This document shows, piece by piece, positions 21,274 through 51,376 of a DNA stretch of 64,000 bases. The notes under the pieces are model-generated. The model worked only from the letters and a program-made list of their open reading frames with translations, did no database searches and was not told the origin of the DNA. A program made the translations under genes and the position numbers. The DNA lies in assembly GCA_963705255.1 (NCBI GenBank), contig OY970061.1, positions 1,312,001 to 1,376,000 of the forward strand. The letters are read 5' to 3'. Each line of letters opens with the position of its first letter. Position 1 is the stretch's first letter. The DNA is from an uncultured Methanoregulaceae archaeon (GTDB lineage: Archaea; Halobacteriota; Methanomicrobia; Methanomicrobiales; Methanospirillaceae).

Positions 21274-21357
21274 GAGAAGTCCTCAAACTTCGAGTTCCGA
21301 AGAGGTTCATCGGAACCTAGAGGATGAAAAGAACTCGTCAGAGTTCTTCGAGTGCGG
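21274..21357 (+). repeat. copy (~1.5 units) of the GA-flanked double-hairpin module
   Basis: TTCCGAAGAGG[hairpin]AGAGGATGAAAAG[hairpin]CTTCGA matches the units at 48345-48673. Confidence 0.75.
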
Positions 21358-45515: not shown

Positions 45516-48343
<2,828 letters not shown>

Positions 48344-48344
48344 G

Positions 48345-48673
48345 GTGTTTCTCCTCATCGTAGTCCTGATGGACCAACCGGAAGTCGAAGGTTCGGCTTC
48401 GCCTCCCTCTTCTTACTTGTAGTTCGGACGAAACTTTTCGGGTTCGAAAAAGTGCTGCGCACTTCTTCTCATCCTCAAGATGCTGACATCTTTCTGAAAG
48501 TCGAAGATTACTTCGTAAATCTTCTCCTCATCGTGGTTCTGATGAACCACTCTGATTTCAAAGAACTGGTGCGCAGTCCTTCTCGTTGTCGAGGTCCCGA
48601 TGGACCTCCCGCAGTTCGAAGAAATGCATCGCATTTCTTCTCATCCTCGAGGCGCTCCGCGCCTCTTCGGAAA
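48345..48673 (-). repeat. tandem array (~5.5 units, period 57-59 nt) of a GA-flanked double-hairpin module; candidate structured RNA
   Basis: Anchor TCGAA/TCAAA on + strand at 48385, 48444, 48501, 48558, 48616; each unit has two hairpins with different but complementary stems. Confidence 0.85.
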
Positions 48674-48744
48674 AGCCATGACCCGGAGTCGAACCGGGAT
48701 CCGCTGATCTGCAGTCAGCCGCGTGGCCGTTCCGCCATCATGGC
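48674..48744 (-). tRNA. tRNA-Cys(GCA), copy 1
   Basis: GCCATGA/TCATGGC acceptor, GCTGA-CTGCAGA-TCAGC, CCCGG-TTCGACT-CCGGG, U73, G37. Confidence 0.96.
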
Positions 48745-48757
48745 ACCTTTGTCTGGA

Positions 48758-48808
48758 TTCACGATTGTGAATCTGACTATACTAGATAACAATTGTGAAT
48801 ATTTATAA
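48758..48808 (-). promoter_or_regulatory. tRNA-Cys1/pscS promoter (TTATAAAT) with two downstream palindromic operator candidates
   Basis: TATA at 48801-48808 on minus; TAACAATTGTGAA 48787-48799; TTCACGATTGTGAA 48758-48771. Confidence 0.65.
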
Positions 48809-48988
48809 GTTCGGTCATCGGCAGAATTTTCCTGATCCTGTTCTCATGTCGTGAATTTTCTTTGGTTTCAGGTTCCAAGGTCTTCTCTGGGAATGATCAT
48901 CGGGAAAGGCAGGCCGGACGCGCCAACAAGCATGACAGGAGATGTGATGGGCAGAAAAATTAATGCAGAAAGACGGTGAGCAAAAACA

Positions 48989-49035
48989 AGGAGAGAATCA
49001 TCCTCTCCTCATCATGGTTCTGATGAACCGCTCGT
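48989..49035 (-). repeat. single double-hairpin unit directly 3' of tRNA-Cys copy 2
   Basis: Minus strand GA-GCGGTTC-ATCA-GAACCAT-GATGAG-GAGAG...CTCTC. Confidence 0.7.
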
Positions 49036-49037
49036 AG

Positions 49038-49108
49038 AGCCAACGCCCGGAATCGAACCGGGATACGCTGATCTGCAGTCAGCCGCGTAGCCTTTCCGCC
49101 ACATTGGC
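49038..49108 (-). tRNA. tRNA-Cys(GCA), copy 2
   Basis: GCCAATG/CGTTGGC acceptor, same anticodon arm as copy 1, CCCGG-TTCGATT-CCGGG. Confidence 0.96.
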
Positions 49109-49227
49109 ACCTGTTCCGGCGATTGTTGTCGCCATACCATAGTAAGACGGGGGATATTTAGAGGCTGATCTGTGGGCGGGATTTGCCGCAAATCCGGGTT
49201 GGGGGGCTTTGCCCGTGAATGCCGGAT

Positions 49228-49312
49228 CAGGTCCAGATGAACCACTCTGGAAGCAGAAGGTTCGCCTTCGCCTCCCTTCTCATCCTCGAGGTGCTGCGCA
49301 CCTCATCGGAAA
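49228..49312 (-). repeat. ~1.5 units of the double-hairpin module upstream of tRNA-Cys copy 2
   Basis: TTCCGAT-GAGGTGC-GCA-GCACCTC-GAGGATGAGAAGG...CCTTC...GAGTGGTTCATC. Confidence 0.78.
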
Positions 49313-49322
49313 CCGAAATACT

Positions 49323-49335
49323 TAACAATTGTGAA
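49323..49335. promoter_or_regulatory. third operator candidate, upstream of the HTH gene
   Basis: Exact 13-nt repeat TAACAATTGTGAA of 48787-48799. Confidence 0.6.
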
Positions 49336-49390
49336 CTTCCATTCCATAATGGTGATCCACTATGAGGGATCGTTTTTGTCGTAACCACCA

Positions 49391-49644
49391 ATGAGAATAG
49401 CACCATACGAAGGATCGGGCACCTGCCGCCATCGGCAAAGCTCGTGTACAAAGTGCTTGAACACGGCGGCCAGCTGACCCAGAAGGATCTCATCCGCGAG
49501 ACCTCCCTGCCTTCCAGGACCGTGCGCTATGCATTGAACCGGCTGAAGGCAGAACAGATCCTTGTCGAGCGCTATTATTTCAGTGACGCCCGGCAGAGCC
49601 TGTACGGCCTGAACCCGCCACGCCAGGAGGTGGTTGCCGTATGA
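49391..49644 (+). CDS. small MarR-like wHTH regulator (apparent 1-nt deletion near 49410)
   Basis: LPPSAKLVYKVLE..GQLTQKDLIRETSLPSRTVRYALNRL; ATG 49391 joins this frame if one A is restored. Confidence 0.8.
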
Positions 49645-49850
49645 TGCGGCCTCACATGCGTCCTGCAGGCATGACATTCCTGTACCCCCCGGTGCGGTGC
49701 TGAACACGGTACAGGAATTCTCCTTATCCATCTTTTTTAAACTGCATGTATCATCAGCAAAAGATTTGTGAAATGGGCGTTCTCCCGTAAAATCCCCGGT
49801 TTTTTTGCAACCATCAAAGGCCAAATAACGCGGAGGGCGATGGATGCCTG

Positions 49851-50288: not shown

Positions 50289-51365
50289 TCAGCGCAGCGA
50301 TGGGCTGCACGTACCGTCACTCTTTCCGCCATACCATTTCTTCCTGAGCCAGAGCGAGACGTTCACCAGCCCGATCAGTACCGGCACTTCGACGAGAGGG
50401 CCGATCACCGTGGCAAATGCCGCCGGTGATGCGATACCAAAGACGGCAATGGCGACTGCAATCGCAAGTTCGAAGTTGTTGGACGCAGCGGTGAAGGAGA
50501 GCGAAGCCGACTTCTGGTAATCGACCCCGAGACGGTGGGCCATCCAGAAGCTTGCAAAGAACATGATGACAAAGTAGCAGAGCAACGGGATCGCGACCCG
50601 TACCACATCGAACGGGACGTTCACGATGTACTCTCCCTTGAGGGAGAACATGACGATGATGGTGAAGAGCAGGGCAATAAGGGTGATCGGCGAGATCTTC
50701 GGGATGAAGACCTGCTCGTACCATGCCTTCGACTTTACGCGGAGGAGCGCGTACCGGGTGACCATACCGGCAATGAAGGGGATGCCGAGATAGATGAAGA
50801 CGCTCCCGGCAATCTGGACGATCGTGATCGAGACTGTTGAGCCGGCCCCGATGCCGAGCAGAGGCGGCAGGAACGTGATGAAGAACCAGGCATAGACGGA
50901 GTAGAAGAAGACCTGGAAGACCGAGTTCAGTCCCACGATTGCGGCGCAGTACTCACAATCTCCTTCAGCGAGATCGTTCCAGACGATCACCATCGCGATG
51001 CAGCGGGCGATGCCGACGAGAATCAGGCCGTACATGAGCATCGGCTGGTCGCGGAGGAAGACGATGGCAAGGACAAACATCAGGACCGGCCCGACAATCC
51101 AGTTCTGGACGAGCGAGAGCCCGAGGATTTTTGTGTTCTGGAATATTTTCGTGAGTTCCTCGTACTTCACTTTCGCGAGCGGCGGGTACATCATGAGGAT
51201 GAGGCCTATCGCTATCGGGATCGAGGTTGTACCGATCGAGAGACCGGTGATGAGTGCCGGTACTGCGGGCGAAAAGTACCCGATGCCGATACCGGCTGCC
51301 ATGGCAAGGAAGATCCAGAGGGTCAGGTAACGGTCGAGGAACGAGAGGTGTCTGGTGGTTTCCAT
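50289..51365 (-). CDS. acr3: ACR3 arsenite efflux transporter
   Basis: [45 protein letters not shown]. Confidence 0.95.
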
Positions 51366-51376
51366 AGGTATCATCT

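What the first reader, a model, noticed from the sequence alone, without database searches (positions are those of the whole stretch)
48345..48673. Array of ~5.5 structure-conserved 58-nt double-hairpin units linking tRNA-Cys to the pscS start codon
SEEN: read on the transcribed (minus) strand, the whole tRNA-Cys1 to pscS spacer is periodic (anchor spacings 59, 57, 57, 58 nt). Each unit is a short linker, hairpin A, a purine-rich linker (GAGGAT/GACAAC/GATGAG), then hairpin B beginning GA-GAAG and ending CTTC-GA. Hairpin A examples: GAGGCGC-gga-GCGCCTC, GAGGTCC-atcg-GGACCTC, GTGGTTC-atca-GAACCAC, AAGATG-tcag-CATCTT, TGGTCC-atca-GGACTA. Hairpin B examples: GAAGAAATGC-gat-GCATTTCTTC, GAAGGACTG-cgcac-CAGTTCTTT, GAAGAAGTGC-gca-GCACTTTTTC. 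Stem sequences differ between units but pairing is kept. Mismatches are mostly G-U on the minus strand, and most stems are closed by GA on both sides. The array starts right after the tRNA discriminator, and the last linker (GATGAGGAG) is the pscS Shine-Dalgarno. KNOWN: tandem sheared GA pairs next to a stem are the core of K-turn/SECIS-type protein-binding motifs, and cGNAg triloops are unusually stable in ssDNA. INFERENCE: selection acts on structure. This could be an undescribed repeated RNA element (protein-binding scaffold, processing/stability signal, or regulator of tRNA-dependent cysteine synthesis) or an archaeal REP/BIME-like element. I do not recognise it as a named family.
Basis: partly seen in the sequence, partly recalled or inferred. 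Interest (0 to 1): 0.9.

Follow-up and report, generated by a model that had tools for sequence, protein, structure and literature searches.

The report
Interspersed double-hairpin repeat array before pscS
The periodic hairpins between tRNA-Cys and the cysteine-synthesis gene are real, but they are a local array of a repeat found well over a hundred times across this methanogen's genome, not a dedicated cysteine switch.

Summary
On the minus strand, 48673-48385 is five head-to-tail units of 57-59 nt. A half unit (48384-48357) and a GAGGAG ribosome-binding motif follow, then the SepCysS start at 48343. Each unit is two hairpins flanked by GA dinucleotides. Pairing is kept by compensatory changes (89% paired; covariation 0.447 vs 0.159 in shuffles, 0 of 500).

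The proposed cysteine-specific function does not hold.
- The unit is a genome-wide family: 144 covariance-model matches, 243 nhmmer hits, about 92% intergenic, on both strands, alone or in arrays.
- It shows no orientation preference relative to neighbouring genes.
- Some copies sit inside transposon-like elements with inverted ends.
- In 45 of 80 related SepCysS loci, tRNA-Cys lies only 10-14 nt from the start codon. Units fill this junction in only some Methanoregula, in varying numbers.
- Complete genomes hold 144, 100, 41 or 0 copies.
- There is no Rfam match and no Y1 (RAYT) transposase.

Best reading: an undescribed archaeal interspersed hairpin-repeat family, similar in kind to bacterial REP/BIME or BOX elements. 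It expanded into the tRNA-Cys trailer and so became the pscS 5' leader. Its means of spread and any RNA-level role are unresolved. All three tRNA-Cys genes carry a unit right after them, including the one in the rRNA operon.

The parts
48674..48744 (-). tRNA-Cys (GCA), copy 1. The array starts at the next base after it.
   Evidence: ARAGORN; Rfam tRNA 56.9 bits
48616..48673 (-). Unit 1 (58 nt): hairpin A with a 7-bp stem and triloop, then hairpin B with a 10-bp stem
   Evidence: model R1 match at genome 1360614-1360673, 59.9 bits
48558..48615 (-). Unit 2 (58 nt)
   Evidence: R1 58.2 bits
48501..48557 (-). Unit 3 (57 nt), the copy closest to the family consensus
   Evidence: R1 74.3 bits
48444..48500 (-). 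Unit 4 (57 nt). Its hairpin B 3' arm holds the only T5 run of the spacer (48451-48447).
   Evidence: R1 64.5 bits
48385..48443 (-). Unit 5 (59 nt). Hairpin A is degenerate. Hairpin B is of the GGGAGGC...GCCGA subtype that recurs in other species.
   Evidence: (nhmmer E 1.2e-6)
48357..48384 (-). Half unit: hairpin A only (6-bp stem, ATCA loop)
   Evidence: (nhmmer hit on model positions 2-36)
48351..48356 (-). GAGGAG Shine-Dalgarno-like motif, 7 nt before the ATG. It occupies the place of the unit's purine-rich linker.
   Evidence: relatives keep a purine-rich motif before the same ATGAGTATC start
46979..48343 (-). SepCysS (pscS), 454 aa
   Evidence: NF006810 622.4 bits (cut-off 301) and TIGR02539 391.5 bits (cut-off 365.25)
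48984..49039 (-). Partial unit (hairpin A, then another hairpin and a T5 run) directly after tRNA-Cys copy 2
   Evidence: R1 24.5 bits, E 7.7e-4; sequence
49037..49108 (-). tRNA-Cys (GCA), copy 2
49252..49313 (-). Unit plus half unit upstream of tRNA-Cys copy 2. Similar to U1 and to U5/U6 of the array.
   Evidence: R1 32.4 bits; blastn matches of query positions 1-45 and 266-311
21294..21353 (+). Solitary unit of the same family elsewhere in the window
   Evidence: R1 52.6 bits
33042..33095 (+). Solitary unit of the same family elsewhere in the window
   Evidence: R1 55.6 bits
48798..48808 (-). The only fully A/T 8-mers near the operon (TATA-like). Likely promoter of the tRNA-Cys1, array and pscS transcript (inferred).
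   Evidence: no 8-mer with 8 A/T lies inside the array

Best explanation
SHOWN. The spacer is a head-to-tail array of 5.5 copies of a ~58-nt double-hairpin module. The module belongs to a genome-wide, intergenic, interspersed repeat family of this Methanoregula genome.

Module architecture: a 3-bp outer helix, a tandem G.A/A.G internal loop, a 7-bp helix with a 4-nt loop (mostly ATCA), a purine-rich linker, and a GA-flanked GAAG...CTTC hairpin whose inner pairs vary freely but stay complementary.

SHOWN. The tRNA-Cys to pscS junction is 10-14 nt in most Methanomicrobiales and Methanosarcinales. Modules occupy it only in some Methanoregula lineages, and in different numbers.

INFERRED. Modules entered the tRNA-Cys trailer and then multiplied locally in unit-length steps by slippage or unequal recombination between the repeated hairpins. 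Relatives have neighbouring units that are 90-91% identical. Here the units are old or of mixed origin (58-74% identical).

INFERRED. The family spreads at the DNA level by a mechanism that is still unknown. It is not RAYT. Some copies are carried inside transposon-like composite elements. The hairpin of one strand is what is preserved.

INFERRED. At this locus no promoter-like A/T stretch lies inside the array, so pscS must be transcribed through it from the promoter upstream of tRNA-Cys. After RNase Z cuts behind the tRNA, the pscS mRNA would begin with eleven hairpins, and only the last linker (GAGGAG) would be left open for the ribosome. The likely effect is passive. The array separates tRNA processing from translation start and caps the new 5' end against exonucleases. 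It is not a cysteine or sulfide sensor.
For: Family size:
- blastn with the spacer gives 57 matches in the own genome.
- Iterated nhmmer gives 243 hits at E<=1 and 157 at E<=0.001, 133 on the minus and 110 on the plus strand. They fall in 150 clusters, 58 of which hold 2-5 copies, often 57-58 nt apart.
- Covariance model R1 matches 144 of the 150 candidates scored.

Location:
- 224 of 243 hits are intergenic against 26% expected, using my own rough ORF calls.
- At the level of intergenic regions, 25 of 359 convergent, 11 of 354 divergent and 43 of 1096 tandem regions hold a unit.

No orientation rule:
- Tandem regions: 15 sense, 22 antisense, 6 mixed.
- Within 150 nt after a stop codon: 20 sense against 19 antisense.

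Structure:
- 89.2% of cells are paired.
- 116 cells show double changes against 31 in shuffles.
- The covariation score is 0.447 against 0.159 in shuffles (0 of 500 reach it) and 0.05-0.11 in slid controls.

The junction in relatives (80 SepCysS loci):
- 45 have tRNA-Cys 10-14 nt before the ATG, and 6 more have 17-26 nt.
- 17 have spacers of 47-335 nt, and 11 of those hold one or more units by HMM or covariance model.
- The closest relative (95% identical SepCysS) has a 24-nt spacer.

Patchy distribution:
- Complete one-contig genomes hold 144 or more (own), 100 (same genus), 41 (another genus), and 0, 0, 0 (two same-genus, one same-family) copies.
- 20 of 121 sampled genomes of the order have any match.

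Discrete unit-size changes:
- Paralogous composite elements differ by 50-62-nt indels.
- One is a 53-nt unit with CAGC on both sides against an empty site.
- Arrays in relatives have units 90-91% identical to their neighbours.

Other:
- No A/T-only 8-mer lies inside the array. The nearest is at 48798-48808.
- No Rfam family matches.
Against: - The GA-bearing strand folds better in 93 of 104 distinct copies and has 100 against 44 G-U pairs. A purely double-stranded or neutral element would not show this. It fits a single-stranded RNA or DNA form of one strand.
- All 3 tRNA-Cys genes, and none of the other 44 tRNAs, are followed within 1-3 nt by a unit on the same strand. This includes the copy between 23S and 5S rRNA. 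The same is seen after extra tRNA-Cys copies in relatives. This non-random link to one tRNA is not explained by random insertion.
- The first unit after the tRNA looks orthologous in several species and differs by compensatory changes. That would fit selection on the transcribed structure at this site.
- The same architecture with different stem sequences exists in other Methanomicrobiales genera.
- No mobilising enzyme was found. Y1 and ISL3 transposase searches were both empty.
- Gene calls used for the context counts are my own crude ORF calls (coding fraction 74%).
- No RNA data could be obtained, so co-transcription is inferred.
Confidence: 0.68

Rival explanations
1. The module is a functional structured RNA domain: a binding platform for a protein or RNase, recognised through the GA-flanked helices. 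It arose in the tRNA-Cys trailer and is used widely as a transcript processing or stability element. The pscS array would then be a multi-site version that controls the fate of the mRNA released from the tRNA.
For: - Strong covariation.
- Strand asymmetry of folding and of G-U pairs.
- Near-invariant GA dinucleotides and GAAG/CTTC helix ends.
- A unit directly after all 3 tRNA-Cys genes, including the one inside the rRNA operon, where it must be transcribed in the sense direction.
- The same architecture in other genera.
- The first unit after tRNA-Cys is retained with compensatory changes in several species.
Against: - No orientation preference relative to flanking genes: 15 sense against 22 antisense tandem regions, and 20 against 19 after stop codons.
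- Zero copies in two complete genomes of the same genus.
- Copy number at the orthologous junction ranges from 0 to 5 or more.
- Copies occur inside transposon-like elements in both orientations.
- No K-turn geometry and no Rfam match.
Confidence: 0.22
2. A dedicated cis-regulatory leader that couples tRNA-Cys or cysteine status to pscS expression.
For: The position between tRNA-Cys and the pscS start, with the last linker serving as the ribosome-binding site.
Against: - 51 of 80 related loci have only 10-26 nt at this junction.
- The unit occurs at 144 or more unrelated sites.
- A separate conserved palindrome upstream of the tRNA, also found before pscS in relatives that lack the tRNA, is a better candidate for regulation.
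Confidence: 0.04
3. A REP/REPIN population mobilised by a RAYT (Y1 transposase), as in bacteria.
For: High-copy intergenic hairpins, enrichment between convergent genes, compensatory changes and strand asymmetry.
Against: - PF01797 finds nothing in the genome, while the same search rings in 6 of 14 control genomes.
- The unit is two different hairpins in direct order, not an inverted pair.
- There is no conserved GTAG-type 5' tetranucleotide. That this tetranucleotide marks REPs is recalled, not tested here.
- The genome is scored only 89.5% complete.
Confidence: 0.04
4. The periodicity reflects a repeated peptide encoded across the spacer (73-aa ORF at 48634-48413, minus strand).
For: An ATG-started ORF of 73 aa spans U1 to U5.
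Against: - Unit lengths of 58, 58, 57, 57 and 59 nt shift the reading frame from unit to unit.
- Substitutions are compensatory in stems.
- The family occurs on both strands and in every context.
Confidence: 0.01

Closest known systems
REP / BIME elements of enterobacteria and pseudomonads
   Same: Short, high-copy, intergenic hairpin-forming repeats. They occur alone or clustered, are enriched between convergent genes, are transcribed with neighbouring genes, and keep their stems by compensatory change.
   Different: No Y1/RAYT transposase is present. The unit is two different hairpins in direct order. Arrays are mostly head-to-tail with a 57-59-nt period rather than alternating orientation. 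The stems are flanked by tandem G.A. The host is an archaeon.
BOX elements of Streptococcus pneumoniae and MIRU of mycobacteria (features recalled from the literature)
   Same: Modular intergenic repeats whose middle module is tandemly repeated a variable number of times. They are often co-transcribed with flanking genes, and no dedicated transposase is known.
   Different: No terminal boxA/boxC-type modules were seen around the arrays. Unlike MIRU there is no orientation rule and no small ORF overlapping the flanking stop and start codons. The sequences are unrelated.
MITEs, including MITEs that contain an internal minisatellite (Porphyromonas gingivalis, PMC4596501; I saw only its listing and abstract start)
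   Same: Some units lie inside ORF-less elements of 157-526 nt with a GGCTCTGTAGAAATC-type terminal inverted repeat and AT-rich duplications of about 8 bp. Their internal unit number varies between copies.
   Different: The 58-nt unit itself has no terminal inverted repeat or target duplication. Only 9 of 113 units lie between an inward-facing repeat pair, and none lies within 5 kb of the finding.
K-turn / K-loop motifs bound by L7Ae
   Same: Tandem sheared-type G.A/A.G next to Watson-Crick helices, and an archaeal setting.
   Different: The GA pairs sit in a symmetric 2x2 loop between two regular helices (hairpin A), or at a helix end with at most one closing pair (hairpin B). There is no 3-nt bulge. 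No C/D or H/ACA family matches. The best is sR34 at 17.6 bits against a 40-bit threshold, and it lies at another unit.

Membership tests
REP/RAYT (REPIN) system | A cognate Y1 (RAYT) transposase gene in the genome, typically flanked by the repeats | tested here: not met
   PF01797 gives 0 matches in the own genome. The control search rings in 6 of 14 known genomes. The genome is scored 89.5% complete.
REP/RAYT (REPIN) system | High-copy, short, imperfect palindromes confined to intergenic DNA | tested here: met
   144 covariance-model matches. 224 of 243 nhmmer hits are intergenic against 26% expected.
BIME | Clusters of palindromic units in alternating orientation, separated by conserved linker motifs | tested here: inconclusive
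   Clusters exist (58 of 150 hold 2 or more copies). Both head-to-tail and inverted arrangements occur. The array in question is purely head-to-tail.
MITE | Terminal inverted repeats and target-site duplication bounding the element | tested here: not met
   For the 58-nt unit, the shared flank words are just the neighbouring CTTCGA unit ends. The feature is met only for the separate 157-526-nt composite elements that carry some units.
K-turn (L7Ae-binding) | A 3-nt bulge followed by tandem G.A/A.G between a canonical and a non-canonical helix | tested here: not met
   Tandem GA is present on both sides of both hairpins. The outer 3-bp helix abuts the GA on both strands with no bulge.
Any curated RNA family (Rfam 15) | Score at or above the family's gathering threshold | tested here: not met
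   Only the tRNAs pass in 47900-49500. Nothing passes for units or composite elements at other loci.
Gene-specific cis-regulatory leader (riboswitch- or T-box-like) | Conserved at the orthologous position upstream of the regulated gene across relatives | tested here: not met
   51 of 80 SepCysS loci have a 10-26-nt tRNA-to-ATG spacer without any unit.
CRISPR array | Near-identical repeats alternating with unique spacers | tested here: not met
   The whole 57-59-nt period is the repeat. Units are 58-74% identical and there is no unique spacer. Adjacency to cas genes was not examined.
Structured nucleic-acid element under selection for pairing | Compensatory base changes beyond shuffled and slid controls | tested here: met
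   16 of 21 pairs show double changes. Covariation is 0.447 against 0.159 in shuffles (0 of 500 reach it) and 0.05-0.11 in slid controls. The alignment of 35 copies from several species was made by sequence alone.

The most novel reading that the evidence does not exclude
The module is a genuine structured RNA domain: two helices each clamped by tandem G.A pairs. It originated as the 3' trailer of tRNA-Cys in the rRNA operon and at pscS. A still unknown archaeal protein or nuclease reads it. It then spread, possibly through an RNA or single-stranded DNA intermediate of that one strand. Arrays such as this one would tune the fate of RNAs released by tRNA processing. This would be an archaeal counterpart of REP-type stabilisers, with its own recognition code and a tRNA-linked origin.
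Probability: 0.18. Interest if true: 0.75.

Novelty: new variant of a known kind. Interest (0 to 1): 0.45.

Why it matters
- It replaces an attractive but wrong reading (a cysteine-pathway riboregulator) with a documented one. What is there is a previously uncatalogued, structure-conserved, interspersed repeat family in Methanoregula and related Methanomicrobiales.
- Such families are well studied in bacteria and barely described in archaea. The MITE review I searched by keyword (PMC10969869, passages) lists only Sulfolobus, Halobacterium, Haloquadratum, Desulfurococcus and "several other" archaeal genomes.
- The family spreads without a RAYT. It has a defined G.A-clamped double-hairpin architecture and an unexplained link to tRNA-Cys trailers, so it is a tractable case for asking how such repeats move and whether hosts use them.
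- The locus is also a natural experiment. The same tRNA-to-mRNA junction exists with 0, 1, 2, 3 or 5.5 hairpin modules in close relatives.
- For annotation, the covariance model marks more than 100 intergenic sites per genome that could otherwise be mistaken for gene-specific regulatory RNAs.

Tried and rejected
- Tandem Repeats Finder on 47500-49800 gave 0 rows. The units are too diverged for it, so this is not evidence against periodicity.
- Rfam at E<=10 gave only sub-threshold chance-level hits besides the tRNAs: RAGATH-11 at 23.7 bits against 79.4, sR34 at 17.6 against 40, sul1 at 17.3 against 36.2.
- Replication-strand bias: cumulative GC skew shows no clear origin or terminus, and unit strand does not change by region. 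Inconclusive.
- Target-site duplications around solitary units: the excess of shared flank words (5.06 against 4.53) comes from neighbouring CTTCGA unit ends, not from duplications.
- Parent transposase for the composite elements: no ORF lies between any of the 11 inward-facing terminal-repeat pairs. PF01610 (ISL3; my recollection that GGCTCT-type ends with 8-bp duplications are typical of that family) gave 0 matches.
- A double-stranded DNA protein-binding palindrome was rejected as the main constraint, because stem sequences change freely while pairing is kept.
- Single-copy matches in another genus (L097, L098): the neighbours share no annotated function. One has an OLD-like TOPRIM gene nearby and the others have no Pfam hit. 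This gives no support for a conserved gene association.
- Viral contigs: a 28-nt IUPAC pattern taken from unit 3 gave 0 matches.
- RNA evidence: the look-up of sequencing runs listed no RNA holder.
- Literature searches listed nothing on this family or on hairpin repeats of Methanoregula or Methanomicrobiales. I read only keyword passages of PMC9499178 and PMC10969869. Supplements were closed. Subscription-journal genome papers are not in the library, so a prior description cannot be excluded.
- Structure prediction, complex prediction, fold search and the large protein searches were not used. No protein question arose.

Full report
WHAT IS THERE

The window lies in a 2.60-Mb single-contig genome. 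Its SepCysS gene is closest to those of Methanoregula MAGs, at up to 95% identity.

On the minus strand, tRNA-Cys(GCA) occupies 48744-48674. SepCysS starts at 48343 (NF006810 622 bits); the ATGAGTATC start is shared by relatives.

The 330 nt in between split at recurring (C/T)TT(C/T)GA ends into units of 58, 58, 57, 57 and 59 nt, plus a half unit. The spacer as a whole is far more stable than shuffles: z = -6.98 on the minus strand and -4.85 on the plus strand.

IT IS A GENOME-WIDE FAMILY

- blastn with the spacer finds 57 other places in the same genome.
- An nhmmer profile started from the five units and iterated four times finds 243 hits at E<=1 and 157 at E<=0.001. Both strands are hit (133 minus, 110 plus). 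The hits form 150 clusters, and 58 of them hold 2-5 copies, frequently 57-58 nt apart.
- A covariance model built from 35 copies (R1) matches 144 of the 150 candidates that were scored.
- With my own rough ORF-based gene calls (2228 ORFs, 74% coding), 224 of the 243 hits are intergenic against 26% expected.
- Counted per intergenic region, units occupy 25 of 359 convergent, 11 of 354 divergent and 43 of 1096 tandem regions.
- Orientation relative to neighbouring genes is not biased. Tandem regions split 15 sense, 22 antisense and 6 mixed. Within 150 nt after a stop codon the count is 20 sense against 19 antisense. Within 150 nt before a start it is 10 against 15.

ANATOMY AND COVARIATION

Thirty-five copies from this genome and from relatives were aligned by sequence alone (A2). 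They show:
- a 3-bp outer helix that covaries (pairs such as TCC/GGA, TCT/AGA, TCG/CGA, TAC/GTA, TTG/CAA);
- GA on both strands;
- a 7-bp helix closed by a 4-nt loop, mostly ATCA;
- a purine-rich linker;
- a GA-flanked hairpin that begins GAAG and ends CTTC, with inner pairs that vary freely.

For this structure 89.2% of cells pair. Sixteen of 21 pairs show changes on both sides, and 116 cells show double changes against 31 in shuffles. The covariation score is 0.447 against 0.159 in shuffles (0 of 500 reach it) and 0.05-0.11 when partners are slid by 1-3 columns.

The GA dinucleotides lie in a symmetric 2x2 loop between two regular helices. There is no 3-nt bulge, so this is not K-turn geometry.

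The GA-bearing strand folds better in 93 of 104 distinct copies (mean difference 3.1 kcal/mol). It carries 100 G-U pairs against 44 on the other strand. Part of the energy difference comes from the GA mismatch bonus, and copies within a subfamily are not independent.

THE JUNCTION IN RELATIVES

I examined 80 SepCysS loci.
- 45 have tRNA-Cys 10-14 nt before the ATG. They include Methanoregula, Methanoculleus, Methanolinea and Methanosarcina.
- 6 more have 17-26 nt.
- 17 have 47-335 nt.
- 1 has the tRNA 2.8 kb away.
- 11 show no tRNA upstream within the locus.

Eleven of the 17 long spacers contain one or more units by HMM or covariance model. Spacers of 75-83 nt hold one unit and longer ones hold two to four. 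The closest relative has a 24-nt spacer.

The short junction is therefore the usual and probably ancestral state, and the array is a lineage-specific filling. In two relatives neighbouring units are 90-91% identical, which indicates recent local duplication. Here the units are 58-74% identical.

THE LINK TO tRNA-Cys

All three tRNA-Cys genes of the genome are followed within 1-3 nt by a unit on the same strand. None of the other 44 tRNAs is.

The third copy lies between 23S and 5S rRNA, so that unit is part of the rRNA primary transcript.

Across 27 measured rRNA operons of the order, the tRNA-Cys to 5S spacer is 5-6 nt in 14 and 30-116 nt with hairpins in 13. The long group includes a related double hairpin in another family and a diverged one in a congener that otherwise lacks the repeat family.

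Extra tRNA-Cys copies in relatives also carry a unit 2-4 nt behind them. I cannot explain this association. Co-duplication of tRNA plus trailer, gene conversion between tRNA-Cys copies, and a role in trailer processing are all possible.

DISTRIBUTION AND MOBILITY

- Among one-contig genomes, copies number 144 or more (own), 100 (same genus), 41 (another genus of the family), and 0 in two further congeners and one other genus.
- In a sample of 121 genomes of the order, 20 have any match at E<=1e-4. Most of these have only 1-3, and the search scored only 44 candidates per genome.
- Elements of the same architecture but with different stems occur in other genera, including small tandem arrays.
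- Within this genome some subfamilies are near-identical and dispersed.
- Part of them sit inside ORF-less composite elements of 157-526 nt. These have a GGCTCTGTAGAAATC-type terminal inverted repeat and AT-rich flanking duplications, for example ATTTTATG on both sides of the copy at genome 585527.
- Paralogous composites differ by discrete 50-62-nt indels that correspond to single units. One is a 53-nt unit with CAGC on both sides where other copies have an empty site.
- Only 9 of 113 near-full units lie between an inward-facing terminal-repeat pair, 27 lie within 500 nt of such a repeat, and none lies within 5 kb of the finding.
- No Y1/RAYT transposase and no ISL3 transposase was found.

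HOW IT PROBABLY WORKS HERE

No 8-mer made only of A/T exists inside the array. The nearest is TTATAAATATT at 48808-48798, upstream of tRNA-Cys1. So pscS is most simply expressed from a tRNA-Cys1, array and pscS co-transcript (inference).

In the common 10-14-nt arrangement the mRNA released by tRNA 3' processing has almost no leader. Here it would start with eleven hairpins and end with an open GAGGAG 7 nt before the ATG.

I infer a passive effect: spacing, and protection of the processed 5' end. I see no sign of a sensor. The one T5 run, in unit 4, could cause some premature termination in an archaeon. This rests on general knowledge of oligo-T termination and was not tested.

WHAT IT IS NOT

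It is not a known Rfam family. It is not CRISPR, because there are no unique spacers. It is not a peptide repeat, because unit lengths shift the frame. It is not a RAYT-driven REP, not a K-turn, and not a conserved pscS leader.

VERDICT

The array is real and structured, but it is a local instance of an interspersed hairpin-repeat family. The family is new in its details: an archaeal host, a G.A-clamped double hairpin, a tRNA-Cys trailer link, and no known mobilising enzyme. The kind is known. Interest is moderate.

Noticed in passing
window 48757-48772 (plus a half copy at 48789-48800, and TTCACAATTGT near 49324-49334): A palindrome, ATTCACGATTGTGAAT, sits between the TATA-like stretch and tRNA-Cys1. 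Closely similar TCACAATTGTGA-type palindromes lie 40-60 nt upstream of SepCysS in relatives that lack the tRNA, and inside two long spacers (L047, L050). The strict pattern occurs only twice in the whole genome. It is a better candidate operator for regulating the pscS operon than the hairpin array.
   Followed up: partly
L009-L088; window 48343-48674: tRNA-Cys lies only 10-14 nt before the SepCysS start codon in 45 of 80 loci across Methanomicrobiales and Methanosarcinales. This implies a tRNA-mRNA co-transcript whose mRNA has an almost leaderless, Shine-Dalgarno-only 5' end after tRNA processing. My literature searches did not turn up a description.
   Followed up: partly
own genome, e.g. 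G000:C1:585527-585745, 2244253-2244734, 2577544-2577914 (L089, L090): A MITE-like family of 157-526 nt with a GGCTCTGTAGAAATC-type terminal inverted repeat and AT-rich duplications of about 8 bp. It has no ORF, and its conserved hairpin-rich core is present about 30-40 times. No parent transposase was found and there is no Rfam match.
   Followed up: partly
L105-L134 (rRNA operons of the order): The tRNA-Cys to 5S rRNA spacer is either 5-6 nt (14 of 27 measured) or 30-116 nt filled with one to three stable hairpins (13 of 27). The hairpins differ by lineage.
   Followed up: partly
window 46979-48343 (-), residues 1-58: SepCysS carries an N-terminal extension of about 58 residues ahead of the region matched by the family models (match starts at residue 59-70). 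A review passage (PMC9499178) says some archaea have a SepCysE-N-terminal-like domain fused to SepCysS. I did not test this here.
   Followed up: no
window 45516-46982 (-): An O-acetylhomoserine sulfhydrylase-family gene (TIGR01326 652.7 bits) starts 4 nt before the SepCysS stop. The tRNA-Cys, pscS and sulfhydrylase genes therefore look like one sulfur-amino-acid operon.
   Followed up: no
window 48984-49036 (-): After tRNA-Cys copy 2 come a half unit, the words GATGAGGAGAGGATGA, a further hairpin and a T5 run. The start resembles the half unit, GATGAGGAGA and ATG that precede pscS. This may be a remnant of a duplicated tRNA-Cys to pscS junction, now serving as a terminator.
   Followed up: no
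window 50289-51374 (-): An ACR3-family arsenite efflux gene (448.5 bits) lies upstream of the tRNA-Cys region. It is unrelated to the finding.
   Followed up: no
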